From positions 1,410,001-1,442,000 of the forward strand of contig NC_009073.1 in the NCBI RefSeq assembly GCF_000015805.1: a stretch of 32,000 bases of DNA, in the 5' to 3' direction. Both the position numbers and the translations under genes were made by a program. Source of the stretch: Pyrobaculum calidifontis JCM 11548 (GTDB taxonomy: Archaea; Thermoproteota; Thermoprotei; Thermoproteales; Thermoproteaceae). Shown piece after piece: positions 7,068 through 26,764 of this stretch (its first letter is position 1; the number at the start of each line of letters is the position of its first letter). Below the pieces are notes generated by a model. The model was not told where the DNA came from and searched no databases. It worked only from the letters and a program-made list of their open reading frames with translations.

Positions 7068-7087
7068 AATAGCTAACACGCGTAGAG

Positions 7088-7095: not shown

Positions 7096-7141
7096 GTCTT
7101 CAAATGCACCCCCTTGGCATAAACGGCGTGTGAAAATCGAA

Positions 7142-10003: not shown

Positions 10004-10021
10004 ATGTGGGAGAAATATCCC

Positions 10022-10029
10022 ATATTTAA
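10022..10029 (-). promoter_or_regulatory. TATA box (TTAAATAT on minus strand) for the ABC importer operon
   Basis: Centred 22.5 nt upstream of ATG 10003. The same octamer and spacing occur at cbtB. Confidence 0.45.
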
Positions 10030-10255
10030 CAATTTCCATAAGAGATTTAACGACGGGCGAGGTGCCCTCCGTGATGAGCATGGGAACGGCGTATGTGTGA
10101 AGAGGGCTTGATTAACTGACGTCTACTGGAGCTCTGTCCTCGCTTGGCTGTAGCCGTTTGGGCTAGCATTGTGCGAGTGGGGAGCCTTGACTGCGGCTCT
10201 GTCATGCAAACAACTCACTATGCTCGCCGCATTAAGTGGCTGGCGCGGGTAATTG

Positions 10256-13185: not shown

Positions 13186-13765
13186 ATGCCGTAATTATGT
13201 AGACGGGGTTTAAAGCGGTCATCACCGTGTACCTTCCCTTGCGCTGTCCGCGGGCGACGAATATCTGGGTCACCTCGTAGTCTAGGCCCAACTCGCCGAG
13301 GGCCTCCACCGCCGCCTTAAGCGACTCCAAAGTCACCACGTCGGCGACTATGATCCCCTTTTCCATGCGCTCCACAGCGGCCTTGATTATGGCCGGTAGC
13401 TCAAGCCCTCCCCCGCCGACGAAGTAGCGGTCTGCCTTAGGCAACTCGGCCAACACCTCCGGGGCCTTTCCCCTCACCAACACCACTCTGTCCGCCACGC
13501 CGAACTTCTCCGCGTTGCGCTTAGTCAACATGAGCGCCTCCTCGTCGTAGTCCACGGCGTATACGCGCGACCCCTCTCCCATTATAAGCGCCGCCTCCAC
13601 AGACACGCTCCCTGTCCCACAGCCCACGTCCACTAAGACGCCGCCTCTGCGTAGCCTAAGCTTTGAAAGAGCTACTGACCTCACCTCCGCCTTGGTCATA
13701 GGCACGCCCTCCGCCCTCTCAAACAGCTCGTCGGGTATTCCCGGCGTTGCGTAGGGCCAAGTCAT
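13178..13765 (-). CDS. cbiT: cobalt-precorrin-6B C15-methyltransferase (decarboxylating)
   Basis: Class I SAM methyltransferase with the CbiT N-terminal signature (GVPMTKAEVRSVALSKLRL…VDVGCGTGSVSVEAA). Confidence 0.9.
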   Translation of the reverse strand: MTWPYATPGIPDELFERAEGVPMTKAEVRSVALSKLRLRRGGVLVDVGCGTGSVSVEAALIMGEGSRVYAVDYDEEALMLTKRNAEKFGVADRVVLVRGKAPEVLAELPKADRYFVGGGGLELPAIIKAAVERMEKGIIVADVVTLESLKAAVEALGELGLDYEVTQIFVARGQRKGRYTVMTALNPVYIITAYA

Positions 13766-14772
13766 ACCTTGGCCAACAGCTCCCCTCCCCTTGCGAACAC
13801 CACCACTACTACGTCGTTGCCCAACGCCTGCTTAGCCCTAACGGCCATGTGTTCCACCACGGCCCTGGCGTGTGGGCCCAAGTAATACAGCGCCTCTTCC
13901 ACAGACGAGGCCTTAACTAGTGCCCCAAGCAGTGCGGGATCTACGCCCACCGCCACGGCCGAGTAAAGCACGGACTCTACGCCGCATTTACACAACTTGC
14001 TGTGGGTGTTCAACGCACCGCAAGCTATCTTAGCCAGCTTGCCCGGCATCGTGGCCAAGTAGATCTCAGAGAAGCCAAACTCCCTAGCCGCCGCCACGGC
14101 CTCTCCCACTAAGTCCCCTATTTTGACCACACAGTCGCATATGGCGGACCTGGCATATTGGGCGCTTCCACTCCCCTGCGCCAACACCACTCTGTCCCCA
14201 GACGACCTCAGCACCTTCAGCTCGGCCTTTACATGTTCAATATACCCCTCGGCGCTCACTGGATACTCTATGCCAGTGGTGCCCAGTATAGACACTCCGC
14301 CCACGATGCCAAGCCTCTCGTTCATGGTTAACTTGGCCAGCTCCTCCCCGCCGGGCACCTCTATCACCACTTCACCGCCCTTCGCCACCTCTCTAAAGGC
14401 CTCCTCAATCATCCGCCTAGGCACAGGGTTTATGGCGGGCTCTCCGGGGGGCACCGGCAAACCGGGCCTAGTGACCACGCCGACCCCCCTGCCCCCCTTA
14501 ACTACCACCTCCTCGCCCCCCAGCCTCGCACACGCCTTGATTATCGCCCCGTCCAAGACGTCGGGGTTGTCCCCAGAGACCTTCTTTACCTCGGCGCAGT
14601 GCCTCCCCTCTTCTACGTACAGCCTCTCCACGGGCACCTCAATCCTTAGCCCAATGGGCGTAGGCACTACCACAGCTCTGGGCCGCTCCCCCAGCGCAAA
14701 CAGCGCGGCGGCCTTGGCCGCAGCAGCCGCCGCGAGGCCGGTGGTTATCCCAAAACGCATCAGTGGAATCAT
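13762..14772 (-). CDS. cbiD: cobalt-precorrin-5B C1-methyltransferase
   Basis: CbiD-type N-terminus (FGITTGLAAAAAAKAA), and GTTGI and related motifs. 336 aa. ATGA-type 4-nt overlaps at both ends. Confidence 0.9.
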   Translation of the reverse strand: MIPLMRFGITTGLAAAAAAKAAALFALGERPRAVVVPTPIGLRIEVPVERLYVEEGRHCAEVKKVSGDNPDVLDGAIIKACARLGGEEVVVKGGRGVGVVTRPGLPVPPGEPAINPVPRRMIEEAFREVAKGGEVVIEVPGGEELAKLTMNERLGIVGGVSILGTTGIEYPVSAEGYIEHVKAELKVLRSSGDRVVLAQGSGSAQYARSAICDCVVKIGDLVGEAVAAAREFGFSEIYLATMPGKLAKIACGALNTHSKLCKCGVESVLYSAVAVGVDPALLGALVKASSVEEALYYLGPHARAVVEHMAVRAKQALGNDVVVVVFARGGELLAKV

Positions 14773-15506
14773 AGCCGGTACTTCCTGCTGTATCCCCTCG
14801 GCGTAATCATGTAGCTGCCCCAGACAAATGTCTCAGAGTTGCCCACTATGAGGATAGTGCGCATGTCCACCTCGTCTACGTCTACTTCGCCCAACGTGGT
14901 TATCTTCACCGCCTCTCCCTCTCTGTAGGCGTTTTTAACAACTCCCACAGGCGTCGAGGGGCCTCTGACGGCCTTTACCACCTCTAAGACGCGCCTCAGC
15001 AGCCCACTATCTATGGGGTTGTACAACGCAATTACAAAGTCGCCCTCTGCGGCCTTCAACGCCCTGTGGAGAATCACATCCTCGGGGGTCAGAAGGGGGC
15101 TTAGGTTCAACACGACGAAGTCTGATCCTAGAGGCGAGCCGAGCCTAGCCCCAGCGGCCAGCGCCGCGGTTACGCCAGGCACCACCTCCACATCTACGGA
15201 GATCCCCCTCTTGGCCAACATCTCAAAGAGGAGGGGGGCCATGCCGAAGACTTGCGGATCTCCGTCTGAGACCAAGGCCACGGTCTTCCCCTCCAGCGCC
15301 TTGGCTATAGACACCTCTGCCCTGTACACCTCCTGCCGCATCTTGGCCGAAACCACCTCCTTGCCCCCGAGGAGGTCCTCCACCAGCTTTATATACGTCT
15401 CATACCCCACCACCACCTCGCTTTTAGCTATGGCGTCAATTGCGGCGAAGGTGCGCTGGGAGGGGTGGCCGGGGCCTATTCCCACTACGTATATCTTACC
15501 GCCCAT
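14769..15506 (-). CDS. cbiH: cobalt-factor III / precorrin-3B C17-methyltransferase
   Basis: I trim the start to ATG 15506 (MGGKIYVVGIGPGHP…VVVGYETY…LVSDGDPQVFGMA…PGVTAALAAGA…ALYNP). The 50-aa Trp/Ser/Pro-rich extension in the track ORF lies inside the upstream gene. Confidence 0.9.
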   Translation of the reverse strand: MGGKIYVVGIGPGHPSQRTFAAIDAIAKSEVVVGYETYIKLVEDLLGGKEVVSAKMRQEVYRAEVSIAKALEGKTVALVSDGDPQVFGMAPLLFEMLAKRGISVDVEVVPGVTAALAAGARLGSPLGSDFVVLNLSPLLTPEDVILHRALKAAEGDFVIALYNPIDSGLLRRVLEVVKAVRGPSTPVGVVKNAYREGEAVKITTLGEVDVDEVDMRTILIVGNSETFVWGSYMITPRGYSRKYRL

Positions 15507-16467
15507 GGGCCAGCTTGACCAGCTCGTTGAAAAGCGCCACGGCGATTCCAGATCCGCCGTATGTCCCCCTGACCACTGCGGCGGGGATGCCAGACTCCAC
15601 GAGCTCCTCCTTGACTCTCTCGGCATTGGTGAAGCCCACGGGGGACGCCACCGCAAAGGCCAACTCAGCCTCGCCGCTCCTCCACGCGTCTAAGCCTGCC
15701 TTAAGCGCCGTGGGGGCATTGCCCACTGCTAAGATCCCGTGCTTAAGCTCTCTGAGCCAGTGGCGCACGCCCTGCGCCGCCCTCGTCACGCCTATTGCTT
15801 GAGCGGGCGCATCCACTGCCACGTACACCCTTCGGTACTTGAGCCCAGCGGCCACCATTCTCACGTCAGCGACAGCTGGCACCTCGGCACGCACTGCCTC
15901 CTCGGCGGCCTTGAGCAAGTCGGGGGAAATCCACACGTTCTTCGCCAGCTCTAGGTTGCCGCTTGCATAAACCGCCCTGGCTATGAGGCGGTCTCTCCAG
16001 TTGGACAAGTCGAGGCCTAGCCTTTCAGCCACGTACCTCATAGACGACTCCTCCACCTCCTCTGGATCCCACACGACGTCTGGGCTCTGCCGCGCGCCCT
16101 CGCCTGCCTCAATGGCCCTTACTATGCGTGAGAGAAAGGCTGACAACACCAGCGGCGAGTCGCCCAGCGGCCTTGTCACATAGACCCTCTTCCCATACGT
16201 GGGAGAGGTGGCCCACTGCTCAAAGTCCACGCCTAATTCGCGGAGGATGTCCTTGGCCACGTGGTTCCCCTCGCCGAGGAAGGCCAGCGCAATTATCACG
16301 TCTCCCTCCGCTTCTCTTATTAGTTGCCGCCAGTTGGGCTCGGCGTATTCGTTGTACCCCACCACGGCCCTAACTCCAAGGCGCTTTGACGCCTCGGCGG
16401 CCCACCTCTCCATTAGCTCGTTAAACGCCGACCTCCGGGAGCCGTGGTTGACAACTATGACCTCCAT
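15496..16467 (-). CDS. cbiX/cbiC: fusion of small sirohydrochlorin cobaltochelatase (CbiX-S) and cobalt-precorrin-8 methylmutase (CbiC)
   Basis: Residues 1 to about 125 are CbiX-S-like (VVNHGSRR…LAFLGEGNHVAKDI…VTRPLGDSP). Residues from about 135 to 323 are CbiC/CobH-like (…VGNAPTAL…ASPVGFTNAE…GTYGGSGIAVA). Confidence 0.8.
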   Translation of the reverse strand: MEVIVVNHGSRRSAFNELMERWAAEASKRLGVRAVVGYNEYAEPNWRQLIREAEGDVIIALAFLGEGNHVAKDILRELGVDFEQWATSPTYGKRVYVTRPLGDSPLVLSAFLSRIVRAIEAGEGARQSPDVVWDPEEVEESSMRYVAERLGLDLSNWRDRLIARAVYASGNLELAKNVWISPDLLKAAEEAVRAEVPAVADVRMVAAGLKYRRVYVAVDAPAQAIGVTRAAQGVRHWLRELKHGILAVGNAPTALKAGLDAWRSGEAELAFAVASPVGFTNAERVKEELVESGIPAAVVRGTYGGSGIAVALFNELVKLAHGR

Positions 16468-17051
16468 AGCCTCCTAAGGGGGGCAAATATAGATGTTAAA
16501 ATCGCCAGCGAGCTCCAGAACAGCGCCCAAGACGCCAGGGAAAGGCCTTGGAGGGCCCTCAGCTCTGGCACAACTCCCGCGTATTTGTCGGGGAGAGTGA
16601 AGCTTGGAAATAGGAGGGGGCCAGCCCCAAGGGCCGCGGCGCCTGCGACTGCGGCAAGCCCTCCCCTCAGCACCAACAGAAGCGCAAATAGGTTGTAGAG
16701 CAGATACGCACCGTGCACCGCCTCTCGCCACCACACCGGCTCCACGTAGGAGACTCCATGCGGAGTGGGGAGCCACTTGAGGCCTGGTAGGAGGGAGAAG
16801 GCCACAAACATAAGCGCGGCCGTCTTGGCCACGCCGTGGCGCATGGACAAGTAGTGGAAAGGAGCAGCCCACGCGGCCCCAAGGGCCATGGCCACGAGCG
16901 GGAGAGCCCACCCTGCGTATTCCTCCTCCCCCTCAACCACGGCCAGCTTGTCGTGGAGTAACTCCGCCAGGGGGGCCGCGAAGTAGTAGAGGAAGGCCAG
17001 CTGGACCAGCGCCGCCAGTGCCCCGGCCACGAGGGCCAGCCTCAGTGACAT
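16455..17051 (-). CDS. cbtA: putative cobalt transporter subunit CbtA-like membrane protein
   Basis: Polytopic membrane protein following a CbtB-like gene at the head of the cbi operon. The loop LLPGLKWLPTPHGVS resembles the CbtA P-x-LKYP-x-NPP region. Assignment is from pattern and context only. Confidence 0.55.
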   Translation of the reverse strand: MSLRLALVAGALAALVQLAFLYYFAAPLAELLHDKLAVVEGEEEYAGWALPLVAMALGAAWAAPFHYLSMRHGVAKTAALMFVAFSLLPGLKWLPTPHGVSYVEPVWWREAVHGAYLLYNLFALLLVLRGGLAAVAGAAALGAGPLLFPSFTLPDKYAGVVPELRALQGLSLASWALFWSSLAILTSIFAPLRRLWRS

Positions 17052-17269
17052 GGTATACCAAGGAGGTGTCTCAGCTCGTGTATTGCGTTGTATATAGGCG
17101 CTGGCACTATCTTCTGAAGAATTCCCCCGAGCGCCGCGTCAATCACGGCGGGGTAGAGGAGCACGGCCAGAGTAACCCCCGCCGCCGCAAGGGCGAGCGC
17201 CGTCTTTAGAGGAAAACGGCTTGTCTTCTGCGCCAGTTTAAGGCCTAGTTTTTTGGTTTTAATTTTCAT
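17042..17269 (-). CDS. cbtB: putative cobalt transporter subunit CbtB-like small membrane protein (75 aa)
   Basis: I trim the start to ATG 17269, which has a TATA box 22.5 nt upstream. One TM helix and a C-terminal His/Cys motif IHELRHLLGIPCH, resembling the CbtB C-terminus (H-x-x-RH-x-x-G-x-PCH). The rest of track ORF 17042..17716 is antisense to cbiE. Confidence 0.6.
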   Translation of the reverse strand: MKIKTKKLGLKLAQKTSRFPLKTALALAAAGVTLAVLLYPAVIDAALGGILQKIVPAPIYNAIHELRHLLGIPCH

Positions 17270-17287
17270 AGTTGGGATATTTCTCCT

Positions 17288-17314
17288 ATATTTAAGCTTT
17301 TTCAGATTTAAATA
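17288..17314. promoter_or_regulatory. compact divergent promoter pair (TTAAATAT for cbtB; TTTAAATA for cbiE)
   Basis: The 66-nt intergenic region is AT-rich. The minus-strand box 17288-17295 lies 22.5 nt from ATG 17269. The plus-strand box 17307-17314 lies 25.5 nt from ATG 17336. Confidence 0.5.
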
Positions 17315-17335
17315 CCTGAAAAATTCTCTACCCCC

Positions 17336-17971
17336 ATGCTGTACATAGTGGGCGTGGGGCCTGGAGACCCCTCTCTGGCCACGTTGAAAGCCGTAGATAC
17401 AATCCGCGGGTGCAGAGTGGTGTTGGGCTGGCGTAGCGTGGTGGAGAGGTTTAAACACCTGCTTGATGGAAAGGAGGTGGTTTATTTGACCTATGGGAAT
17501 CAAGAGGCTGAGTTGAGGAGGGCGGCCGAGAGGGCCGCGGGCGATGAGGTCTGCCTCTTGGTGCATGGCGATCCCCTGGTCTCCGACTGGGAGCTTCTTG
17601 AGAGGGTAAGGGCGCTTGGCGTAGATTTCGAAGTGGTGAACGGCGTCTCCTCTGTAAACGTGGCGCTTGGAAGAGTGGGGCTGGACTTGGCTCAGGTGGT
17701 GTTTCTCACCATGCACGCCTCAAGGCCGCAGGACGTAGCCGAAGTGGCTTGTGTTGCAAGGAGCAGGGCGCTTGTAATTTTCCCTCCCCCTGGCGGAATT
17801 AGGCGGCTGGCAGAGGCGTTGATCTCGCTGGGCATGGGCAAGTGCCGCGCCGTGGTGCTGGAAAACCTTACTCTGCCGGGGGAGTGGGAGTGGAGGGGGT
17901 CTGTAGAAGAGATGGCAGAGCTCGACGCAGGGGACCTCGCGGCCGTCGTGGTGGACTGCCGTGTCTCTTGA
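17336..17971 (+). CDS. cbiE: cobalt-precorrin-7 C5-methyltransferase
   Basis: Tetrapyrrole methylase (MLYIVGVGPGDPSLATLKAV…HGDPLV…NGVSSV) of CbiE size, and divergent from the cbi operon. Confidence 0.85.
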   Translation: MLYIVGVGPGDPSLATLKAVDTIRGCRVVLGWRSVVERFKHLLDGKEVVYLTYGNQEAELRRAAERAAGDEVCLLVHGDPLVSDWELLERVRALGVDFEVVNGVSSVNVALGRVGLDLAQVVFLTMHASRPQDVAEVACVARSRALVIFPPPGGIRRLAEALISLGMGKCRAVVLENLTLPGEWEWRGSVEEMAELDAGDLAAVVVDCRVS

Positions 17972-18902
17972 CCTGCTGTGGAGGGGGGTTGCCGTAGTGT
18001 ACGCCTCAGAGGCTGGGCGGCATCCCGCCGAGAGAGTGGCCGAGTCGCTGAGGGGGGCGGGCGTGGCAGCATATATCTTCAGGTACGGCCAGTTGGAGGA
18101 CGTCTGGGGATGCTACGACGCGTATGTGTTCGTCATGGCGCTGGGGGGCGTGGTGAGGTGGCTCTGCGGCAGACTGGTGGACAAGGCGGCGGACCCCCCA
18201 GTCGTGGTGGTGTCCCACGACTTAGGCCACGTGGTGCCGGTGGTGGGCATGCACAGGGGGGCCAACGGCTTGGCCATAGAGCTGGCGAAGCTTCTTGGCG
18301 CAACTCCAGTCTTGACAACGGCCGCTGAGGCGGCGGGATTTGCGCCCGTCGAAGACCTCGAGAGGGCGCTACTGTGCGGCTTAGATCCGCGAGACGCCTT
18401 AGAGGTCTACCGGGCGCTTGCGTTGGGCAAGACGGTGTGCGTCGACGCCCCTCTTCCACGCCCCCTCCCTGGCTATAGGCAGGGCAACGACTGCGACGTG
18501 GTGGTGTGGGTGGGTTGCGATGGGGAGATGTGTTGTAGGCCGTGGAAGATTTACGCAGGCTTCGGCGCCACTTCTACGGCTACCGTAGAGGACGTAGTAG
18601 AGGCTATTCTACAAGCTATGAAGGCGGTGGGGGCAACGACTCTGGAGGCCGTTGCGTCGATAAAGCCTCTCGTCTATCAAGTGGCCGAGAGGCTGGGAAC
18701 GAGGCCCATCTTGCTTAACCCGGGGCAACTGGCGAGGGATCGGTGCCTCTCGCCGCCTCTTGAAATCGCCAAGGCTACAGTGGGCGCGGGAAACGTGGCT
18801 GAAGCATCTGCGCTAGCCGCGGCGGGCCCCCGCGGCTTTTTGCTCTACAGAAAGAGATCCTACAAGCGTCGGGTAACTGTGGCGATAGCCGCATCAACCT
18901 AA
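17961..18902 (+). CDS. cbiG: cobalt-precorrin-5A hydrolase
   Basis: GTG start overlapping the cbiE stop. Three-part CbiG architecture, with a C-terminal CobE-like segment (FGATSTATVEDVVEAILQAM…VASIKPL…). Confidence 0.8.
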   Translation: MSLDLLWRGVAVVYASEAGRHPAERVAESLRGAGVAAYIFRYGQLEDVWGCYDAYVFVMALGGVVRWLCGRLVDKAADPPVVVVSHDLGHVVPVVGMHRGANGLAIELAKLLGATPVLTTAAEAAGFAPVEDLERALLCGLDPRDALEVYRALALGKTVCVDAPLPRPLPGYRQGNDCDVVVWVGCDGEMCCRPWKIYAGFGATSTATVEDVVEAILQAMKAVGATTLEAVASIKPLVYQVAERLGTRPILLNPGQLARDRCLSPPLEIAKATVGAGNVAEASALAAAGPRGFLLYRKRSYKRRVTVAIAAST

Positions 18903-20241: not shown

Positions 20242-21255
20242 TTATTGCCTCTCGCCCCCATACGCCTTTTTGTAGAGGGATAGATACACCGAGGCCAGCA
20301 ACGCCGACATTATGTCGTCTGCAAAGGGGGCGAGCTCTCTAAAGGCGCCCCTCTTCTTCACCCGCTCGACCCAGTAAGTGGTCAAGACTGCTTGGAATCC
20401 CCCGAGGTAGTCCGCCAGCGCCACACCGAGGAGCTCGTCTGCGACAAGCCTAGGCGAGTCGCTTTTGAACTCCTCCGCCGAGAGCCCTGGGATGAGGCCC
20501 CTTGTGCCCATGGCGTCCAGCTCAGAGGCGGCCAAGATGAGGGCCCAGACGTTTGGGTCTTTGAGGAATTTGTCAAGCTCTCTCAGCTCTTCCCCCTCCT
20601 TCACTGGCAGAGGAGCCTCCTTAAGCAAGGCGGCGAAGGCTTGCGAGAACTCCCTCCTAGTGGCCCCGAGCGCTCTTTCAAAGAGGTCGTAGGCGTCCAA
20701 AGCGACGACAAGCTCGTAGACGAGCTGCGTAGCCCTTTGCCCCAGCTCGGTGGCGGGGCCGGCGTGATGTATCGACTCTCCTTGCCTCTCCGGCACGGCT
20801 ACTAGAACCGCGTCGGTGACTGTGCCTGGGCTCCTCATGCCGTTGCATCTGGCCAGCCTGTCCACCGCGGCTAGGCACTTGGCCTCCACCGCTGTCCTCA
20901 GGAGGTCTACCATGCCCCACTTGGACAGCGGAGCGTCTGCTATAACGGCCACGTTGATAGTCCCCCCGACGCAACTCGTCGGCGACATGGCCACTGTGGC
21001 CGCCGCGGAGACGGGGCCCTCGGCCCTTACGCCAAAGGACTCGGGTAGCTTTGCCGCCGTTAGAAAGACCGCAGTGTCTTCCCCCAGCGCCTTCCTCACG
21101 CGGGCCGCCTCTGCCTCGTAGGTATCGGAGAAGTCCTTGTCCACCTGCTTAAACGCTATTCTAGCGATCTGGGGCGGCGTGGGGAGAGAGGAAATGGCGC
21201 GGTGCGCCTCGCCGAGTTCCACCACCACTAGTCCCCTCTCTTTACGTATCTCCAT
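20242..21255 (-). CDS. cbiZ: adenosylcobinamide amidohydrolase (CbiZ) fused to a PgpA/CobZ-like C-terminal domain (CbiS-like bifunctional architecture)
   Basis: The N-terminal approximately 200 aa carry CbiZ hallmarks (GGTINVAVI, TAVEAKCLA, SPGTVTDAVLVAV). The C-terminal approximately 130 aa carry a PgpA-like motif (PFADDIMSALLASVYL). The gene overlaps the cobT 3' end by 28 nt. Confidence 0.8.
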   Translation of the reverse strand: MEIRKERGLVVVELGEAHRAISSLPTPPQIARIAFKQVDKDFSDTYEAEAARVRKALGEDTAVFLTAAKLPESFGVRAEGPVSAAATVAMSPTSCVGGTINVAVIADAPLSKWGMVDLLRTAVEAKCLAAVDRLARCNGMRSPGTVTDAVLVAVPERQGESIHHAGPATELGQRATQLVYELVVALDAYDLFERALGATRREFSQAFAALLKEAPLPVKEGEELRELDKFLKDPNVWALILAASELDAMGTRGLIPGLSAEEFKSDSPRLVADELLGVALADYLGGFQAVLTTYWVERVKKRGAFRELAPFADDIMSALLASVYLSLYKKAYGGERQ

Positions 21256-22238
21256 ACGCGCTCGTACTCGGCCTCCACCAGCTTCAACACGTCGCGCCCC
21301 ATGGACTGGGCGTAGAAGAGCGCCCCGCCCATCCCCACCCCCTCCTTAACGGCGCCTCTCTCATAGGCCCTAAGCCCCTCGTACTTCGACTCGCCGAAAG
21401 AGGCGGTGGCCACGTGGACGTTTTTGACCCCTACCTCGGCCATTAGGCCGAGGAAGTCCGCCGACTTGTCTTCCACAATCCACCTAGTGGTAACCACATG
21501 CAACTTGGCGAGGTCGCCGCCCATGGCCTTGTAAATCGCCGCGGCCGCCGCCATCTGAGTACCCCCCGCCAATACCGGGACTCCGCCCGCCTCAGCGACG
21601 CCCAGCGCAATTGCCGCCAAGGCGGGGTGGACCGGGTCGCCCAGCTCGCATACCACCCTGAGCGGGTCGGGGGGCGGCTTGGCCCTCTCGAGGGCATCCA
21701 TTACGACTTGGGCCTTAAGCTCCTTTGGATTATTGGGCGAGGCGGAGCTGGTCCTGCCCCAAGCGTTGTATCCCAGCCCCACTAGTATGGCCATGGCCGT
21801 GGTGGTTCCCCCTGGTATAGACTCTCCGAGGTACACTACGCCGAGGCGGCCCAGCTCCCGCCCGAGCATCCTGCCCCTGCTCGCCAGCTCCTCGGCCGCG
21901 GCGCAACTCATGGCAGGGCCCCTCCTTATGTCCCCGCCTGGCTCGCCGCCTAAGTCCACATACGGCACCCTCGGCCTCACTCTAGCCCCGGCGTTTACCA
22001 CCAGCTTAGGCACGTCGAAGGCCACTGCCCTTGTGACAAGCGCGGGGGTGGGAATGCCGTCGGGCGTCACTGGCACTACGTCGAGGGTGATAGGCCTCCC
22101 GGTGAGGAGATATTCCACGTCCAAGGCGGGGGTATAGTGGGTAAGCTCAGGAGTAGCCCCCGCAACAGTTATGCCGGGGATTAGAGAGACGTCTGTAGTC
22201 CCAATCACCACGGCGAATATGGCTGGCTTTAAGTTCAT
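21228..22238 (-). CDS. cobT: archaeal-type nicotinate-nucleotide--dimethylbenzimidazole phosphoribosyltransferase (UPF0284/CobT-like)
   Basis: N-terminus FAVVIGTTDVSLIPGITVAGATPELTHYTPALDVEYL is typical of the archaeal CobT-like family. 336 aa, with its own TATA box. Confidence 0.85.
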   Translation of the reverse strand: MNLKPAIFAVVIGTTDVSLIPGITVAGATPELTHYTPALDVEYLLTGRPITLDVVPVTPDGIPTPALVTRAVAFDVPKLVVNAGARVRPRVPYVDLGGEPGGDIRRGPAMSCAAAEELASRGRMLGRELGRLGVVYLGESIPGGTTTAMAILVGLGYNAWGRTSSASPNNPKELKAQVVMDALERAKPPPDPLRVVCELGDPVHPALAAIALGVAEAGGVPVLAGGTQMAAAAAIYKAMGGDLAKLHVVTTRWIVEDKSADFLGLMAEVGVKNVHVATASFGESKYEGLRAYERGAVKEGVGMGGALFYAQSMGRDVLKLVEAEYERVWRYVKRGD

Positions 22239-22278: not shown

Positions 22279-22932
22279 CTACATGTGCCACGTAACTATA
22301 TACGCCACACGTGAGACCTCTAGAAGGTAGCCGAAGACGTCTCCGTTTGCCCCACCGAGGTGTTGATATGCAACAGCATACAACGCCAAGGCAACGGCAA
22401 GGGCGGCAAGCGTAGCGGCTGGCCTTAAGCATATTATCACGGCTAGGGCTGGGAGCGCCAGCGGCCAGGTGGACCTCGCGCCGTCTATAAACAGCGCCCC
22501 TAAGCCGGGCTTGAATGGCTTGCTAAACGCCGCTACGGTCACTATCAGTGCCTTTGAGAAGACCTCTGCCAAGAGGAGCTGAAGAGGGGACGCGGTAGAG
22601 GCTGTGGCGACTGCGTATGTGGCCACCACTGCGAATATGCCGCCAGTGCCCCTCCTGGGGTCTTCCAACACGGCGCGTGCCCTCTCCCTGTCTCTGACCA
22701 TCAATGCGTCGGCCACGTCGGCGAGGCCGTCGAGGTGGTTGAGCCCGGTCATCAAGAGGAGTAAGAGATAGGCCACGTGGGGACTTGCGCCGAGCCACAG
22801 GGCGGCGGCCGCTGGCCCCGCCACTAAGGGGGGTACCACGTAGGGGAGCGCCCAGGCGCATTTGAAGTCCAGCTTGGCTACTCCCGCCGGTATTATTGTG
22901 AAGAAGGAGAGGAGCGCCCTTAGGCACTGCAT
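22279..22932 (-). CDS. cobS: adenosylcobinamide-GDP ribazoletransferase (cobalamin synthase)
   Basis: I trim the start to ATG 22932 (MQCLRALLSFFTIIPAG…), which overlaps the cobD stop by 13 nt. CobS motifs are present (LMTGLNHLDGLADVADAL; GGANGDVFGYLLE). The Arg-rich 96-aa extension in the track ORF lies inside cobD. Confidence 0.85.
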   Translation of the reverse strand: MQCLRALLSFFTIIPAGVAKLDFKCAWALPYVVPPLVAGPAAAALWLGASPHVAYLLLLLMTGLNHLDGLADVADALMVRDRERARAVLEDPRRGTGGIFAVVATYAVATASTASPLQLLLAEVFSKALIVTVAAFSKPFKPGLGALFIDGARSTWPLALPALAVIICLRPAATLAALAVALALYAVAYQHLGGANGDVFGYLLEVSRVAYIVTWHM

Positions 22933-23840
22933 ATGGCCTTTATCAACACGTCGTTTAGCTCCGGAGTTTTGATAGATACGCGGTAGGCGTCTGCAAGGCC
23001 GTGGGTCCACAGCGGCCTCACCTTGACCCCCTTGGGCTCTCTGCCCTTCACCACGAAGAAGTGGACGTCGGTGGGGAGCGGGCTCGCGCACTTGGCGACC
23101 TTCTGCCACACCCGCGGGAGCTCTTCGGCTATGTAGGCGAGGGTCCTCTCTCTGTGCTTCTTTATGCCAGATGCGCCTAGGTGGTAGATGGCGTAGTCTG
23201 CTATGGAGTTGAGACGCCAAGGCGCTTTGAGGCCCGGCGGGGGGTCGCCCAAGTATGCCCCGACGCGGAGGCCCGGCGCCGCGAGGAGTTTGCCGTAGGA
23301 TTTCACCACGGGCACGTCTGGGGCGGCGGACTCGCCCCTTGTGAAGTCTATGAAGGACTCGTCCACGAGAAGCGCCGCCCCTCTCGCCTTGAGGCGGCGC
23401 GCCAAGTCGAGCACCTCGTCTCTCCTCACGTACCTCCCCAGCGGATTGTTGGGGTTTGACATCACCACTAGGTCCCCCGAGGCGGCTTGTAGGGGGTCCT
23501 CCACTAGGACGTAGCCGACGCCGAGCAGCTGAGCCACTCTCACATAGTCGGCGTAGTTGGGCCAGGGGATTACAATGCGCCGCGGCTTAAGCGCCGCGAT
23601 AGCCGCAAGCAGGGCCTCAGTCGCCCCGTTGAACACAGTCACCTCAACCCCCTCGTACTCCCTCAACACCTCCTCCGCCAAATTGGCCGGGAAGCGGAGG
23701 TAGACGCCCCTCTCCACGGCCTCTCTCACGTAATAAATCAAGCCCTCGGGAGGGCCTATGGGGTTTGAGTTGTCCGAGAAATCTGGCATGACGCCCTCCT
23801 CCGCCCAACTGGTGCCCCCGTGATAGAAGACTACAGCCAT
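22920..23840 (-). CDS. cobD: L-threonine-O-3-phosphate decarboxylase (class I/II aminotransferase fold)
   Basis: HGG near the N-terminus, SNPNNPLG, and a PLP-lysine region (KSYGKLLAAPGLRVGAY). 306 aa with no extra domain. It sits in a B12 nucleotide-loop context. Confidence 0.85.
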   Translation of the reverse strand: MAVVFYHGGTSWAEEGVMPDFSDNSNPIGPPEGLIYYVREAVERGVYLRFPANLAEEVLREYEGVEVTVFNGATEALLAAIAALKPRRIVIPWPNYADYVRVAQLLGVGYVLVEDPLQAASGDLVVMSNPNNPLGRYVRRDEVLDLARRLKARGAALLVDESFIDFTRGESAAPDVPVVKSYGKLLAAPGLRVGAYLGDPPPGLKAPWRLNSIADYAIYHLGASGIKKHRERTLAYIAEELPRVWQKVAKCASPLPTDVHFFVVKGREPKGVKVRPLWTHGLADAYRVSIKTPELNDVLIKAICSA

Positions 23841-23936: not shown

Positions 23937-24761
23937 TTACCGCTCTTCATAGTAGCCGCACATGGAGCAGTAGCCGTCGAATTGAGCGTAGCCGCATCTA
24001 GGGCACCCCTCGGCGCTCCGCAGGTATTGGAAGCCCTTTGCTTCAAAGAGGCGGCAGAGGTAGGCGTAGGGGCTCCCAGCCCTCTTCTCCATCTCCTCGT
24101 ACAGGCGGTTGAAGCAACTACCCTCCTCCAGCGGGGTCTTCCTCCTCGCGGCGATTAGCGGCGCCACGCCCTTTAGGGCCTCTCTAAGCGGCTTTTTGTC
24201 TAAGACCTCGGCGGCTGGCAGAGCGAGCGCAAATTTCACCACCTCGTTCTCTGTGAAGGGGAGCACCGCCTCTAGGCCCAAGGCCTGGGCTATCTGGCGG
24301 CTACAGAACCTCCACTTTGCCACTATCTCGCGGCGTTTTTCCTCAAGCGCGTGGAGGGGATATTTGCGGTAGAAGGAGTAGCCGAGGAAAAGCTCGTCTC
24401 CCCCGTCGCCTGTACACACCCTCCTAAGCCCCAAGTCCCTCGCCCTCTCAAGCCCAGCATACTGCACTGCGCAGTTTACGAGCTCCATGGCGTTGAAGTT
24501 CTTCAACACCTCCATGGCCCTCTCCACGTAGTCGAGCGCCTCTACAAGTCTCACTTGCACAATGGAGAGGGGGGTGGAGAGGCGGGCCGCGGCGTATAAG
24601 GCAAATGGCAAATCCCCCTGGCAACTGACCAGCGACACTGTTATGCCGACGGGCACATGTCCTATCCGCCTCGCGGCGTAGGCCACCAAAGTGCTATCAA
24701 TTCCCCCGGAGAGGAGGACGCCGTCACACTCCGCATACTTAGACAAGAGGTCTACAATCAC
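23937..24761 (-). CDS. asparagine-synthetase-like PP-loop ATP pyrophosphatase lacking the glutaminase domain, with a C-terminal zinc ribbon
   Basis: GTG start in a GTGA overlap with the upstream stop. PP-loop LLSGGIDS at residues 16-23, AsnB-type motif CTGDGGDELFLGY, and a C-terminal CPRCG…CSMCG. Confidence 0.8.
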   Translation of the reverse strand: MIVDLLSKYAECDGVLLSGGIDSTLVAYAARRIGHVPVGITVSLVSCQGDLPFALYAAARLSTPLSIVQVRLVEALDYVERAMEVLKNFNAMELVNCAVQYAGLERARDLGLRRVCTGDGGDELFLGYSFYRKYPLHALEEKRREIVAKWRFCSRQIAQALGLEAVLPFTENEVVKFALALPAAEVLDKKPLREALKGVAPLIAARRKTPLEEGSCFNRLYEEMEKRAGSPYAYLCRLFEAKGFQYLRSAEGCPRCGYAQFDGYCSMCGYYEER

Positions 24762-25366
24762 GGCCTAATCTCGGCGATGTAGTACCCCCCGTAGACCGCC
24801 GCAGGCACACACTTTGCCTCAGCTGAGACGACGAGCCTCTTCACCTCTACCACTTGGCTGTGGTACTCTCCGCGCTCCCCTAGGGGGTCGACACTCATCT
24901 TCTTCGCCAAGGCGATAAACTCCTCCACGTTGCTCCCGTCGACTCTTCTACAGAGGAGCTCCCCCGGCCCGCCGATGATGTAAAAGGAGAGCTCCTCCGC
25001 CTCCCTCCTGAGGAGCTCTTCGTGGTCCATCCCCCACAGCGGCTCCTTCAGCGACGCCCCCACTTCGCGCGCCAGCTTCTCCATGTAGCGCAAGTGGTCT
25101 TCCACGTCGACGTCCCCAGCGACAATCACGTCTACGCCCAGCTTCCTCAAGAGGCGGGCCTTTTCCTCAAACTCTCTCCCCTTGGGCAACTTGTGAACCA
25201 CCACGGGGGCTATACGCGAGCCAAACCCCACGGCGAAGCCCAAGTTAGCGATGTGGGGAGAGGGCCTGGGAAACTCGTAGATGAGGAATACAAAGGCGTC
25301 TATGGGCCACTCCAAGAGAGCCGCGTACACGCTCTCTTTGCCCCCGCTGTAGAAGGCTATTTTCAT
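24758..25366 (-). CDS. DUF71/COG2102 (Dph6/MJ0570-like) PP-loop ATPase
   Basis: I trim the start to ATG 25366, which forms an ATGA overlap with the cbiB stop. MKIAFYSGGKESVYA is the SGGKDS PP-loop with D->E. VIVAGDVDVEDHLRYMEKLAREVG and GERGEYHSQVVE match the ATP_bind_4 pattern (GE-x-H-[TS]). Confidence 0.8.
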   Translation of the reverse strand: MKIAFYSGGKESVYAALLEWPIDAFVFLIYEFPRPSPHIANLGFAVGFGSRIAPVVVHKLPKGREFEEKARLLRKLGVDVIVAGDVDVEDHLRYMEKLAREVGASLKEPLWGMDHEELLRREAEELSFYIIGGPGELLCRRVDGSNVEEFIALAKKMSVDPLGERGEYHSQVVEVKRLVVSAEAKCVPAAVYGGYYIAEIRP

Positions 25367-26310
25367 GGGCCTCCAAAAATCAACACTTTTAAATATTGAA
25401 CAATCGTCCATATTAAAAACATGACTACGAAGTAAACCGCGGTGACTGCCGTGGCAAGCTTAACGCCTCTGGCTATGTCGGCCGCGGTGGGCGGCCTCCC
25501 AGAGGGGTTCAAGACGTAGTGCCCCCTCTTTTCCAGTCTCACGCCGAGCGCTCCTGCCATGGCCGACATTGGGTGGCCCGCGTTGAGGCTCTCTGTGGCG
25601 TTGTGCCACCTTAGCCACACTGCCAGGGCCTTCCTCACGTCGCCGCCGGCTATGGGCGCCAGGAGGGCTATCAGTAGGGCGGTGAGGCGGGCCGGGATAA
25701 AGTTCAGGACTGTGTCCGCCCGGGCCGAGACCCACCCCACGTCTTTAAACTCGGGCGTCTTATAGCCTAAAGCGCCGTCCAACGTGTTGGCCACCCTTTG
25801 CCCTAAGGCGCCTAGGGGGCCCAGCAGTACGGCGTAGAAGACCGGTGAAGTGAAGCCGTCCACTAGGCTCTCCGCCAAGCTCTCCAACGCCGCCGACGCT
25901 ACGCCGGCTTCCTCTAGGGAGGATACGTCTCTTCTCACGATGTGACTCACCCACCGCCTTGCCTCTGCCAAGTCGCCTCTCTCAAGCGCCTTCTGCACTC
26001 TGCGGCATATGTCCACCAAGAGCTTGTACGAGATGGAGAACTTGAGTGTAGCGGCGGCCGCCAGAGCCCACGCCAGGGGGTGGAAGGCGGCCAGGGCCAA
26101 AAGCGCGGCGAAGGGGGTCAAATGCGCCGCCTCTACGGCGAGCCACACTGCAATTCCCCACAGCCTGTCCCTCCGCCGCTTGGCCAGCCGTAGCGCCATG
26201 AAGTAGGAGGTGTGCACCGGGTGTATCTTTAAGAGGAGGCCCCGGTGCTCGGGGTACACCACGTCGAGGGCCAAGGCGAGCGCTAGCGCAAGCCAGATTT
26301 CACCAGTCAA
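25363..26310 (-). CDS. cbiB: adenosylcobinamide-phosphate synthase
   Basis: Polytopic membrane protein with CbiB/CobD-family features (LALDVVYPEH…IHPVH…; GHPMSAMAGALGVRL). Confidence 0.9.
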   Translation of the reverse strand: MTGEIWLALALALALDVVYPEHRGLLLKIHPVHTSYFMALRLAKRRRDRLWGIAVWLAVEAAHLTPFAALLALAAFHPLAWALAAAATLKFSISYKLLVDICRRVQKALERGDLAEARRWVSHIVRRDVSSLEEAGVASAALESLAESLVDGFTSPVFYAVLLGPLGALGQRVANTLDGALGYKTPEFKDVGWVSARADTVLNFIPARLTALLIALLAPIAGGDVRKALAVWLRWHNATESLNAGHPMSAMAGALGVRLEKRGHYVLNPSGRPPTAADIARGVKLATAVTAVYFVVMFLIWTIVQYLKVLIFGGP

Positions 26311-26764
26311 GCCCCCTAATGGCCAAAACCCCCCTCTGGTAGTAGTGTTTGACGTTGTCCAGCCGCGTCACTAAGTCGAAGTAGCCCCCAAAGCCCTCCT
26401 CCCAATACCCCCCAGTGACCACCACGTGGGACCTCAGCCTTGCGAGATCGCCCAAGTGCCGCGGCTCTAGAAGGTCCTGCCTAACCGCGTACAACAGCTC
26501 GTCCAACACGACTACGTCGTAGCTGTCGCCTTGGGAGAGGGCGTACTCCAGGAGGGCGGCGGGGCTCCTTAAGTCGGTGAGATACACAGCGTCTATCCCC
26601 AGCCGCCTCATGGCCTTGTACTCCCCCACCTCCTCCCCCATGTAGAAGGGCGTCTTCATGACTCCCACGTACAGCACCCTGAGCCCGTGGCCCCACGCCC
26701 TCAGCGCTATGCCGAGTGCCGCAGAGGTCTTCCCCTTGCCGCTCCCCGTGAATGCCAGGCGCAT
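26300..26764 (-). CDS. cobA: ATP:co(I)rrinoid adenosyltransferase (CobA/CobO/BtuR type, short form)
   Basis: P-loop FTGSGKGKTSAALGIALRAWGHG, then VVVLDELLYAV and VVVTGG. It heads the late operon, with a TATA box 22.5 nt upstream. Confidence 0.8.
   Translation of the reverse strand: MRLAFTGSGKGKTSAALGIALRAWGHGLRVLYVGVMKTPFYMGEEVGEYKAMRRLGIDAVYLTDLRSPAALLEYALSQGDSYDVVVLDELLYAVRQDLLEPRHLGDLARLRSHVVVTGGYWEEGFGGYFDLVTRLDNVKHYYQRGVLAIRGLDW

What the first reader, a model, noticed from the sequence alone, without database searches (positions are those of the whole stretch)
23937..25366. Two different PP-loop adenylating enzymes translationally coupled inside the cobA-cbiB...cobD late-B12 operon
Seen in sequence: a DUF71/COG2102 (Dph6-like) PP-loop ATPase sits directly after cbiB with an ATGA overlap. 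Its PP-loop reads SGGKES (codons 25331-25348). It is followed, with a GTGA overlap, by an asparagine-synthetase-like PP-loop enzyme (SGGIDS, codons 24693-24710; CTGDGGDELFLGY). That second enzyme has no N-terminal glutaminase domain and ends in a CPRCG…CSMCG zinc ribbon.

Established knowledge: Dph6 and AsnB both adenylate a carboxylate and amidate it. A comparative-genomics study of DUF71 (de Crecy-Lagard and co-workers, as I recall) noted a B12-linked subfamily with no assigned reaction. The canonical corrin amidases CbiA and CbiP use a different fold, and neither is present in this window.

Inference: this pair may carry out ammonia-dependent amidation of corrin side-chain carboxylates. That could serve salvage (a link with cbiZ and the BtuFCD-like importer) or replace CbiA/CbiP. 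It could also repair thermally deamidated corrinoids in a hyperthermophile. The pairing with the AsnB-like enzyme and its Zn ribbon is unexplained.
Basis: partly seen in the sequence, partly recalled or inferred. Interest (0 to 1): 0.7.

Follow-up and report, generated by a model that had tools for sequence, protein, structure and literature searches.

The report
Two ATP-dependent amidating enzymes in B12 operon
Two uncharacterised ATP-using enzymes of the carboxylate-to-amide kind sit inside a vitamin B12 operon of a Pyrobaculum-like archaeon, and they or their relatives turn up next to or fused with B12 genes in archaea, bacteria and B12-dependent eukaryotes, so they probably mark an undescribed B12 maintenance step.

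Summary

The DUF71 protein is not a diphthine-ammonia ligase. It scores 58 bits against a cut-off of 197 and carries GERGEYH, the signature of the B12-linked DUF71 subgroup predicted in 2012 and still not assayed.

The new result concerns its partner, an AsnB synthetase domain with no glutaminase and a C-terminal Cys4 ribbon (AsnBL). It belongs to a large family (462 representatives at E<=1e-30) that is linked to B12 on its own:
- It lies beside DUF71-B12 and/or btu, cbiB and cobS genes in Pyrobaculum, other Thermoproteota, Dehalococcoidia, Anaerolineae and Desulfobacterales. In an unbiased scan this held for 7/15 family loci against 2/145 control loci (p=4.5e-7).
- It is fused to a CblC/MMACHC-like domain in oomycetes, to a BtuF-like domain in an alga, and to a CobY-like domain in an archaeon.

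Best explanation (inferred, not shown): both enzymes adenylate corrinoid side-chain carboxylates and amidate them with free ammonia, serving salvage or repair.

Replacement of CbiA/CbiP is not excluded. No Thermoproteaceae B12 locus examined carries either gene, and a published table lists only DsrN in complete Pyrobaculum genomes. CobQ presence could not be tested.

The parts
24758..25366 (-). DUF71 (B12-type) PP-loop ATP pyrophosphatase, 202 aa. NCBIfam family TTX_0299.
   Evidence: PF01902 E=8e-19. NF052347 scores 315 bits against a cut-off of 250; Dph6 TIGR03679 scores only 58.5 against 197.3. AF2 pLDDT 95.3. Top Foldseek hits are PH1257 and PF0828, TM about 0.8.
25331..25348 (-). PP-loop SGGKES of the DUF71 protein
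   Evidence: Translated. S7, G8, G9 and K10 are invariant in alignment A2.
24860..24880 (-). GERGEYH motif, the DUF71-B12 signature (ENGE[F/Y]H). Dph6 has GEGGEFE at this position.
   Evidence: The motif is defined in PMC3541065, section 13.
23937..24761 (-). AsnB-like synthetase-domain-only PP-loop enzyme with a C-terminal zinc ribbon (AsnBL), 274 aa
   Evidence: PF00733 E=1e-23. The family profile hits the E. coli AsnB C-domain (residues 211-506) at E=4e-37. AF2 pLDDT 96.6. Top Foldseek hits are AsnB 1ct9 and beta-lactam synthetase 1mc1.
24693..24710 (-). PP-loop SGGIDS of AsnBL
   Evidence: S18, G19 and G20 are invariant in A1.
24378..24413 (-). TGDGGDELFLGY, which aligns with SGEGSDEVFGGY of AsnB. 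D119 sits at the position of the AsnB Glu I recall as the catalytic Glu348.
   Evidence: G118, D119, D122, E123, L124, G127 and Y128 are invariant.
23958..24005 (-). Cys4 zinc ribbon CPRCG-x8-CSMC
   Evidence: C253, C256, C265 and C268 are at least 90% conserved from archaea to fungi. The profile also matches the rubredoxin-like end of rubrerythrin, E=1.4e-4.
25363..26310 (-). CbiB (adenosylcobinamide-phosphate synthase). Its stop codon overlaps the DUF71 start.
   Evidence: PF03186 E=1e-76; NF002281 396 bits.
26300..26764 (-). CobA/BtuR corrinoid adenosyltransferase
   Evidence: PF02572 E=2e-29.
22920..23840 (-). CobD-like threonine-phosphate decarboxylase. Gene callers start it at about 23789.
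   Evidence: PF00155; TIGR01140 E=9e-39, below its cut-off.
22279..22926 (-). CobS
   Evidence: PF02654 E=1e-35.
21228..22238 (-). Archaeal-type CobT
   Evidence: TIGR00303 324 bits.
20242..21255 (-). CbiS, a bifunctional CbiZ amidohydrolase and CobZ phosphatase
   Evidence: NF038002 444 bits; PF01955.
7142..10081 (-). BtuF/BtuC/BtuD-like ABC importer
   Evidence: PF01497, PF01032, PF00005.
11786..18902 (.). De novo anaerobic corrin genes: four TP_methylases, CbiT-like, CbiD, CbiX-CbiC and CbiG. CbiA, CbiP and CbiJ are absent.
   Evidence: (L001).

Best explanation
The two genes encode two independent PP-loop adenylate-forming enzymes dedicated to corrinoid (B12) metabolism. One is a B12-type DUF71. 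The other is a glutaminase-less AsnB-like synthetase with a zinc ribbon.

Proposed mechanism:
1. Each enzyme binds Mg-ATP at its PP-loop.
2. It adenylates a free side-chain carboxylate of a corrinoid, giving acyl-AMP and PPi.
3. Free ammonia displaces AMP and leaves the carboxamide. This is the chemistry of Dph6 and of the AsnB synthetase domain.

Two different enzymes would cover different side-chain positions, or different corrinoid forms (incomplete versus complete).

The main role is salvage or repair: making imported or hydrolytically deamidated corrinoids usable before CobA, CbiB and CobS act on them. In Thermoproteaceae, where no CbiA/CbiP was seen, the same enzymes may also carry out the biosynthetic amidations.

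Shown: domain identity, intact catalytic motifs, confident folds, and a conserved genomic and domain-fusion link to B12 genes. Inferred: the corrinoid substrate, the amidation reaction, and the use of ammonia.
For: 1. Catalytic equipment is intact.
- PP-loops SGGKES and SGGIDS.
- In AsnBL the residues aligned with AsnB's SGEGSDE and RQKEQ motifs are invariant (D119, D122, E123, K208).
- In DUF71 the residues S, G, G, K, H38 and GE.GE are invariant.
- Fold models have pLDDT 96.6 and 95.3. They match the AsnB/beta-lactam synthetase and PF0828/PH1257 folds.

2. The DUF71 protein is the B12 type. It has GERGEYH and is far below the Dph6 cut-off.

3. The two genes keep a B12 context through many rearrangements.
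- P. oguniense: DUF71-AsnBL-CobD-CobS-CbiB.
- A Pyrobaculum MAG in which the two are split between two B12 operons, DUF71-CobD-CobS and AsnBL-CobT-CbiS-CobA.
- L096: CbiT, two methylases, then DUF71-AsnBL.
- L015: BtuCD ... DUF71-AsnBL ... CbiS-CobY-CobD-CobS-CbiB.
- Dehalococcoidia: AsnBL beside BtuD-BtuC-CobA-DUF71-BtuF.
- Desulfobacterales: TonB receptor-AsnBL-DUF71-BtuF-BtuC-BtuD.
- Anaerolineae: CobT-CobS-CbiB-CobD-CobC/U ... BtuCD-AsnBL-DUF71.
- L099 and L098.
- Nitrososphaera: next to methylmalonyl-CoA mutase.
- Control: 7/15 family loci against 2/145 other loci, p=4.5e-7.

4. Domain fusions of AsnBL.
- A CblC/MMACHC-like domain in oomycetes. The profile hits human MMACHC at E=2.4e-9 over residues 13-228.
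- A BtuF-like binding domain in Prasinoderma.
- A CobY-like domain directly after cobS.
- By my knowledge, eukaryotes cannot rebuild the nucleotide loop or make corrin. The AsnBL substrate there must then be the finished cofactor's periphery, which fits side-chain chemistry.

5. P. arsenaticum lost the cobalamin cassette and has one DUF71 copy instead of two.
Against: - No biochemical or genetic datum exists for either family.
- The conserved Glu188 of Dph6 is a His in the B12 type. The 2012 authors read this as a change of reaction.
- The pair is not always B12-linked. In Thermoproteus it sits with a PF01663 phosphodiesterase, away from the cbi cluster. Nitrosopumilus AsnBL has no B12 neighbours. 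A Pyrolobus H-type DUF71 lies among translation genes, 8.5 kb from Dph2.
- The 2012 paper reports that DUF71-B12 anticorrelates with CbiZ in bacteria, which suggests a remodelling role rather than amidation.
- AsnBL occurs without DUF71-B12 (Nitrosopumilus), so the two are not an obligate complex.
- Deamidated corrinoids as a relevant natural substrate is an assumption.
Confidence: 0.5

Rival explanations
1. Non-orthologous replacement of CbiA and CbiP. In Pyrobaculum and Thermoproteus the pair carries out the six biosynthetic amidations of cobyrinic acid in the de novo pathway. This is its primary role, not salvage.
For: - The window and every Thermoproteaceae B12 locus examined contain a near-complete anaerobic pathway but no PF01656/PF07685 protein (window, L007, L094, L095, L176, L178).
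- The supplementary table of PMC10504309 lists only DsrN, inside dsr clusters, or nothing (P. aerophilum IM2) for complete Pyrobaculum genomes. It does list CbiA plus DsrN for Caldivirga.
- In L096 the pair directly follows de novo methylase genes.
Against: - CobQ/CbiP presence in these genomes could not be tested. DsrN might serve in both roles.
- The pair is common in bacterial btu-only import operons and in eukaryotes that do not make corrin.
- Thaumarchaeota, which I recall as carrying CbiA/CobQ, also have AsnBL.
Confidence: 0.17
2. Cobamide remodelling, the 2012 proposal. DUF71-B12, with its partner, fulfils the role of bacterial CbiZ. It either removes the nucleotide loop of pseudo-B12 and other cobamides to give cobyric acid, or opens another route to reuse them.
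For: - PMC3541065 reports strict anticorrelation of DUF71-B12 and CbiZ in bacteria, and clustering with btuFCD (75/102) and cbiB (18/102).
- Alkaline-phosphatase-superfamily genes sit beside the pair in L008 and L015. These could cut a phosphodiester.
Against: - ATP-driven adenylation runs opposite to amide hydrolysis. A reviewer raised this in the paper.
- This window and L015, L178 and L099 carry CbiZ/CbiS together with the pair.
- Eukaryotes with the CblC-AsnBL fusion cannot rebuild a loop (my knowledge).
Confidence: 0.13
3. Carboxylate-activating partners of CbiB. One or both enzymes adenylate the f-propionate of adenosylcobyric acid, so that the membrane protein CbiB can attach aminopropanol phosphate.
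For: - Translational coupling to cbiB here.
- cbiB is adjacent or divergent in L178, L099, L098, L032 and L015.
- From my own knowledge, CbiB has no recognised nucleotide-binding domain.
Against: - By my knowledge, most cbiB-containing organisms, such as Salmonella, lack both families.
- The pair occurs in operons with no cbiB within 10 kb (L020, L019) and in eukaryotes with no CbiB.
Confidence: 0.1
4. Not a B12 function. The pair amidates some other substrate, for example a protein or tRNA as in diphthamide synthesis, and the B12 neighbourhood is an accident of gene order.
For: - A Pyrolobus H-type DUF71 lies near eIF5A, SRP54 and Dph2.
- The GATII-AsnB_C-DUF71 fusion in Methanohalophilus and Methanosalsum is their only DUF71, hence presumably Dph6.
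- The Thermoproteus and Conexivisphaera contexts lack B12 genes.
Against: - The association statistic.
- Independent gene arrangements in five phyla.
- Three kinds of fusion to B12-handling domains.
- Loss together with the cobalamin cassette in P. arsenaticum.
Confidence: 0.05

Closest known systems
DUF71-B12 subgroup of COG2102 (de Crecy-Lagard et al., Biol Direct 2012, PMC3541065)
   Same: PF01902 fold, PP-loop, the ENGE[F/Y]H-type signature (here ERGEYH), clustering with cbiB and btuFCD, and presence as a second DUF71 copy beside Dph6 in relatives.
   Different: It belongs to a shorter (about 200 aa), divergent Thermoprotei branch that NCBI models separately (TTX_0299 family). It coexists with CbiZ/CbiS. 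It is paired with an AsnB-like enzyme, which the 2012 paper does not mention in the passages retrieved (its mentions of AsnB there concern the GATII-AsnB_C-DUF71 fusions). Its function is still unassigned.
Dph6, diphthine-ammonia ligase (EC 6.3.1.14)
   Same: Same fold and PP-loop. The likely chemistry is the same: carboxylate adenylation followed by attack of ammonia.
   Different: It fails the Dph6 HMM cut-off. Glu188 is replaced by His. The 2012 paper reports that the predicted EF-2-binding residues differ in the B12 subgroup (not compared here for this protein). The gene context is B12, not translation.
Asparagine synthetase B (AsnB) and its synthetase-domain relatives (beta-lactam synthetase, carbapenam synthetase, TsnB9)
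   Same: The C-terminal synthetase domain, the SGGxDS PP-loop, the acidic GDGGDE motif and the RxK ATP-binding motif. It is also the best match by fold.
   Different: It has no N-terminal class II glutaminase domain and so no ammonia tunnel. It adds a Cys4 zinc ribbon. It scores far below the AsnB equivalog cut-offs. Its context and fusions are with B12 genes.
CbiA/CobB and CbiP/CobQ corrin amidases
   Same: If the proposal holds, the same net reaction: ATP-dependent amidation of corrin side-chain carboxylates.
   Different: The fold is unrelated (MinD-like P-loop plus a GATase_3 glutaminase). They form an acyl-phosphate and release ADP, and they depend on glutamine. The pair here would form an acyl-adenylate, release AMP and PPi, and use free ammonia.
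CblC/MMACHC cobalamin-processing chaperone
   Same: It is fused to AsnBL in oomycetes. Both would therefore act on incoming cobalamin before delivery to the B12 enzymes.
   Different: CblC removes the upper axial ligand. It is not present in this window.

Membership tests
DUF71-B12 subgroup (PMC3541065) | PF01902 domain with an N-terminal SGGKD/ES PP-loop | tested here: met
   PF01902 E=8e-19. SGGKES at 25331-25348.
DUF71-B12 subgroup (PMC3541065) | ENGE[F/Y]H motif in place of the Dph6 motif EGGE/DxE188 | tested here: met
   GERGEYH, with N replaced by R. All AsnBL-linked DUF71s have GE.GEYH, while PF0828 and PH1257 have GEGGEFE.
DUF71-B12 subgroup (PMC3541065) | Physical clustering with cbiB or btuFCD | tested here: met
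   Overlaps the cbiB stop codon. BtuFCD lies 15 kb away in the same window.
DUF71-B12 subgroup (PMC3541065) | An extra DUF71 copy in a genome that also has a genuine Dph6 | not testable with these tools
   The window's genome is not available. In Table S1 of the paper, P. aerophilum, calidifontis, islandicum, oguniense, T. neutrophilus, tenax and uzoniensis have two copies. P. arsenaticum, which lacks the B12 cassette, has one.
DUF71-B12 subgroup (PMC3541065) | Phylogenetic placement in the B12 cluster of the DUF71 tree | tested here: inconclusive
   No tree was built. HMM scores are 315 bits for its own TTX_0299 family, 77 bits for the PAB0415 family (cut-off 250) and 58 bits for Dph6.
Dph6 diphthine-ammonia ligase | Scores above the TIGR03679 equivalog cut-off | tested here: not met
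   58.5 bits against a cut-off of 197.3.
Dph6 diphthine-ammonia ligase | Conserved EGGE/DxE188 catalytic motif | tested here: not met
   His169 sits at the Glu188 position.
Asparagine synthetase B (glutamine-hydrolysing) | [quoted passage not shown] | tested here: not met
   The protein is 274 aa and its PP-loop starts at residue 18. The match to AsnB starts at AsnB residue 211.
Asparagine synthetase B (glutamine-hydrolysing) | C-terminal synthetase domain with SGGxDS and the ATP-binding and catalytic motifs | tested here: met
   PF00733. The profile hits 1ct9 at E=4e-37. D119, D122, E123, K189, R206 and K208 are invariant. Foldseek TM is 0.73-0.75.
Asparagine synthetase B (glutamine-hydrolysing) | Scores above the AsnB equivalog cut-offs | tested here: not met
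   TIGR01536 scores 62 bits against 267. NF006949 scores 49 bits against 499.
CbiA/CbiP corrin amidases | CbiA-type P-loop domain (PF01656) plus GATase_3 (PF07685) | tested here: not met
   Neither protein has these domains. Any similarity would be functional only.
AsnB-like zinc-ribbon family (unnamed, defined here) | Stand-alone AsnB synthetase domain of about 270-340 aa ending in CxxC-x8-10-CxxC | tested here: met
   Alignment A1: the four Cys are at least 90% conserved. There are 462 representatives at E<=1e-30, mostly 300-340 aa.
AsnB-like zinc-ribbon family (unnamed, defined here) | Genomic or fusion link to B12 genes | tested here: met

The most novel reading that the evidence does not exclude
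A previously unrecognised cobalamin side-chain re-amidation system, in effect B12 repair, built from two PP-loop amide synthetases. It would be present in archaea, in bacteria and, as CblC fusions, in B12-dependent eukaryotes. In Thermoproteaceae it would also be the only corrin amidation machinery, replacing CbiA and CbiP with AMP-forming, ammonia-dependent enzymes.
Probability: 0.3. Interest if true: 0.85.

Novelty: new variant of a known kind. Interest (0 to 1): 0.7.

Why it matters
- The role of the B12-linked DUF71 proteins has been open since it was predicted in 2012.
- This work gives that family a conserved partner family. It adds independent fusion evidence that the partner handles cobalamin itself, and it yields a concrete reaction to test.
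- If the reaction is side-chain re-amidation, it would be a new step in cobamide salvage. It would explain how B12 users cope with deamidated, potentially antivitamin corrinoids. It would also matter for predicting who can use which corrinoids in microbial communities.
- If it replaces CbiA/CbiP in Thermoproteaceae, it would fill missing steps in an archaeal B12 pathway with a mechanistically different enzyme type.

Tried and rejected
- **Finding cbiA/cbiP in the genome.** Extending the window through edge genes failed because the contigs end there. No CobQ sequence turned up in any fetched locus to use as a query. A remote CobQ query was judged uninformative, because only the 8000 candidates sharing most words are scored. 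This question stays open.
- **Genome and metagenome scans with the AsnBL alignment.** The extra loci were reused as a control set.
- **NCBIfam classification of the bacterial btu-linked DUF71s.** It gave no family above cut-off, so the sequence motif was used instead.
- **A DUF71-AsnBL fusion.** None was found among the 20 longest or oddest family representatives.
- **The published GATII-AsnB_C-DUF71 fusion.** I considered it as support for the pairing, but it is the sole DUF71 in those methanogens, hence Dph6. It is not evidence for B12.
- **Riboswitch or other RNA in the window.** Rfam found none.
- **Literature.** Searches for any assay of DUF71-B12, or any report of an AsnB-like enzyme in B12 metabolism, found nothing beyond the 2012 paper and reviews citing it.
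Full report
**Observation**

The minus strand of the window carries an uninterrupted run of late-B12 genes:
- CobA, 26300-26764
- CbiB, 25363-26310
- a DUF71 protein, 24758-25366
- an AsnB-like protein, 23937-24761
- CobD, CobS, archaeal CobT and the bifunctional CbiS, down to 20242

- The DUF71 ATG overlaps the cbiB TGA (CCCATGAAA).
- The AsnB-like GTG overlaps the DUF71 TGA (GCCGTGATT).
- The PP-loops read SGGKES (25331-25348) and SGGIDS (24693-24710).
- TGDGGDELFLGY is present.
- CPRCG-x8-CSMCG lies at 23958-24005.

The rest of the window holds a de novo anaerobic corrin cluster: four TP_methylases, a CbiT-like gene, CbiD, CbiX-CbiC and CbiG. It also holds a BtuFCD-like importer. It contains no CbiA, CbiP or CbiJ. 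The nearest named relatives are Pyrobaculum species at 55-57% identity.

**The DUF71 protein**

It is not a diphthine-ammonia ligase. It scores 58.5 bits on the Dph6 equivalog model, whose cut-off is 197.3. It scores 315 bits on NCBI's function-less "TTX_0299 family putative ATP pyrophosphatase".

The 2012 comparative study of DUF71 (PMC3541065) split the family into Dph6 and a "DUF71-B12" subgroup.
- The B12 subgroup clusters with btuFCD (75/102) and cbiB (18/102).
- It is marked by ENGE[F/Y]H where Dph6 has EGGE/DxE188.

The window protein reads GERGEYH, and so does every DUF71 I found next to an AsnB-like gene. The solved Dph6 orthologues PF0828 and PH1257 read GEGGEFE.

The paper's Table S1 lists two DUF71 copies in P. 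aerophilum, calidifontis, islandicum, oguniense, T. neutrophilus, tenax and uzoniensis. It lists only one in P. arsenaticum, the species that lost the cobalamin cassette (PMC3558965).

The predicted structure is confident (pLDDT 95.3). It superposes on PH1257 and PF0828 with TM about 0.8.

This half of the finding is a member of an already published, still uncharacterised group. I found no later experimental work on it.

**The AsnB-like protein (AsnBL)**

Its family profile aligns with residues 211-506 of E. coli AsnB at E=4e-37. That is the whole synthetase domain and nothing of the glutaminase domain.

The residues aligned with AsnB's PP-loop, with its SGEGSDE motif (here TGDGGDE) and with its RQKEQ motif are invariant across the family. 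The four ribbon cysteines are at least 90% conserved.

The model has pLDDT 96.6. Its best structural matches are AsnB, beta-lactam synthetase and carbapenam synthetase.

An exhaustive profile search finds 462 representatives (clusters at 50% identity) at E<=1e-30. Most are stand-alone proteins of 300-340 residues. The family is large and has gone unnamed.

**Genomic linkage**

The two genes stay with B12 genes through many independent rearrangements.

| Locus / lineage | Arrangement |
|---|---|
| P. oguniense | DUF71-AsnBL-CobD-CobS-CbiB |
| Pyrobaculum MAG (L178) | split between two B12 operons 8 kb apart: DUF71-CobD-CobS, and CbiB divergent from AsnBL-CobT-CbiS-CobA |
| Metagenome contig L096 | CbiT, two methylases, DUF71-AsnBL |
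| Thermoproteota MAG (L015) | BtuC-BtuD ... DUF71-AsnBL ... CbiS-CobY-CobD-CobS-CbiB |
| Dehalococcoidia (L019) | AsnBL beside BtuD-BtuC-CobA-DUF71-BtuF |
| Desulfobacterales (L020) | TonB receptor-AsnBL-DUF71-BtuF-BtuC-BtuD |
| Anaerolineae (L032) | CobT-CobS-CbiB-CobD-CobC/CobU ... BtuC-BtuD-AsnBL-DUF71 |
| L099, L098 | AsnBL with CbiB, CobD, CbiS and CobT (L099), or with CbiB and CobD (L098) |
| Nitrososphaera (L022, L024) | AsnBL next to methylmalonyl-CoA mutase |

As a control I used the loci returned by the same pattern scans that encode ordinary AsnB-type genes. Seven of 15 full-length family loci carry a DUF71 or a specific B12 gene. Only 2 of 145 other loci do, and both appear to be fragmentary family members (Fisher p=4.5e-7).

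Exceptions exist:
- In Thermoproteus the pair sits with a PF01663 phosphodiesterase, away from the cbi cluster.
- Nitrosopumilus AsnBL has no B12 neighbours and no H-type DUF71.
- Conexivisphaera has the two genes 10 kb apart without B12 genes.
- A Pyrolobus H-type DUF71 lies among translation genes.

The two proteins are therefore separate enzymes that often travel together, not obligate subunits.

**Domain fusions**

Among the longer family representatives, eight share a homologous N-terminal domain. A profile of that domain matches human MMACHC (CblC) over residues 13-228 at E=2.4e-9. The named members come from the oomycetes Aphanomyces and Globisporangium.

Two representatives, from the green alga Prasinoderma coloniale, carry a BtuF-like Peripla_BP_2 domain.

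One, from a Thermoprotei MAG, carries a CobY-like NTP_transf_3 domain and directly follows cobS.

By established knowledge, CblC is the protein that receives incoming cobalamin, and eukaryotes neither make corrin nor rebuild the nucleotide loop. An AsnB-type enzyme fused to CblC therefore most plausibly acts on the periphery of the finished cofactor.

I found no paper mentioning such a fusion or an AsnB-like enzyme in B12 metabolism. Subscription literature is only partly covered.

**Mechanism**

What is shown: two intact PP-loop adenylate-forming enzymes whose closest characterised relatives (Dph6, AsnB) turn a carboxylate into a carboxamide through an acyl-adenylate. Neither has a glutaminase. 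Both are tied to corrinoid transport, processing and late assembly.

What I infer:
- Each adenylates a corrinoid side-chain carboxylate, and free ammonia completes the amide.
- The two enzymes divide the work by position or by substrate form.
- The purpose is to make imported or hydrolytically damaged corrinoids usable.

I give this 0.5.

- None of six Thermoproteaceae B12 loci contains a CbiA/CobQ-type gene.
- The supplementary table of PMC10504309 lists only DsrN, inside dsr clusters, for complete Pyrobaculum genomes and nothing for P. aerophilum IM2. It lists CbiA plus DsrN for Caldivirga.
- I could not test for CobQ, so I keep this reading at 0.17. It cannot be the general role, given the bacterial import operons and the eukaryotic fusions.

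The 2012 remodelling idea (0.13) and a CbiB-partner role (0.10) are weaker for the same reasons. A non-B12 role is unlikely (0.05).

**Comparison and novelty**

The DUF71 half is a divergent member of the published DUF71-B12 subgroup. The AsnBL half fails the membership tests for asparagine synthetase B: it has no glutaminase domain and scores far below the equivalog cut-offs. It defines its own family.

Neither protein is related to CbiA/CbiP. If the proposal is right they would be mechanistic analogues: AMP-forming and ammonia-dependent, against ADP-forming and glutamine-dependent.

I rate the finding a new variant of a known kind. PP-loop amide synthetases have been recruited to corrinoid metabolism; half of this was predicted before, and the partner family and its cross-domain fusions appear to be new.

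**Limits**

There is no experimental evidence. The genome of the window's organism was not available. The absence of CbiA rests on another paper's BLAST-based table. No phylogenetic tree was built.

Noticed in passing
window 16455-17051 (-) and about 17042-17269 (-): A 198-aa multi-pass membrane protein and a 75-aa single-pass protein ending HELRHLLGIPCH sit between CbiX-CbiC and the methylase/CbiG genes. Neither has a Pfam hit. Both are conserved in the P. oguniense, P. aerophilum and Thermoproteus cbi clusters. The architecture recalls the predicted CbtA/CbtB cobalt transporter.
   Followed up: partly
window 11786-18902; L007, L094, L095, L176, L178: Thermoproteaceae B12 clusters lack not only CbiA and CbiP but also CbiJ (cobalt-precorrin-6A reductase). 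If these genes are absent genome-wide, several steps have unknown enzymes.
   Followed up: partly
P0244, P0313, P0275, P0287, P0314, P0307, P0318, P0267: Oomycete proteins (Aphanomyces, Globisporangium) and unnamed relatives fuse a CblC/MMACHC-like domain to the AsnB-like zinc-ribbon enzyme. Kickxellales fungi (P0032, P0038) have the stand-alone form.
   Followed up: partly
P0278, P0282; P0201 / L181 3152-4738: A BtuF-like periplasmic-binding domain is fused to AsnBL in the alga Prasinoderma coloniale. A CobY-like nucleotidyltransferase is fused to AsnBL in a Thermoprotei MAG, directly after cobS.
   Followed up: partly
L008 7827-9098; L015 4854-5852; L095 15313-16437: Alkaline-phosphatase-superfamily genes (PF01663 or PF01676) lie next to the pair, or near the cbi cluster, in Thermoproteus and in a Thermoproteota MAG. 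They could be a nucleotide-loop phosphodiesterase or phosphatase.
   Followed up: no
L015 1702-3145: A weak ECF S-component-like membrane protein and a PfkB-family kinase lie between BtuCD and the pair. This resembles the CblT/CblS alpha-ribazole salvage system (my recollection).
   Followed up: no
L099 11919-12869: A GHMP-family kinase lies 1 kb downstream of AsnBL in a B12 salvage locus. It may be a PduX-like L-threonine kinase.
   Followed up: no
L022 7908-9509; L024: In Nitrososphaera the AsnBL gene lies next to the large subunit of methylmalonyl-CoA mutase, a B12-dependent enzyme.
   Followed up: no
L179 1633-2217: Pyrolobus fumarii has an H-type (GEHGEYH) DUF71 among translation genes (eIF5A, SRP54, Pus10), 8.5 kb from Dph2, with no AsnBL nearby. 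The genome has a second DUF71 copy. Which copy is Dph6 is unclear.
   Followed up: partly
L178 4132-9119: A ThiC/BzaF-like radical SAM gene with PurE and PurK lies between the two B12 operons of a Pyrobaculum MAG. It may make a benzimidazole lower ligand.
   Followed up: no
window 6516-7109; L007 3397-3909; L176 1143-1760: A DUF3782/PDDEXK_10 nuclease-like gene recurs at the edge of Pyrobaculum B12 clusters. PaREP1 genes lie nearby in L007 and L095, which fits the published description of the cluster as a mobile or lost cassette.
   Followed up: no
window 1-32000: No Rfam family reaches its gathering score, so there is no cobalamin riboswitch in front of any B12 operon here.
   Followed up: yes
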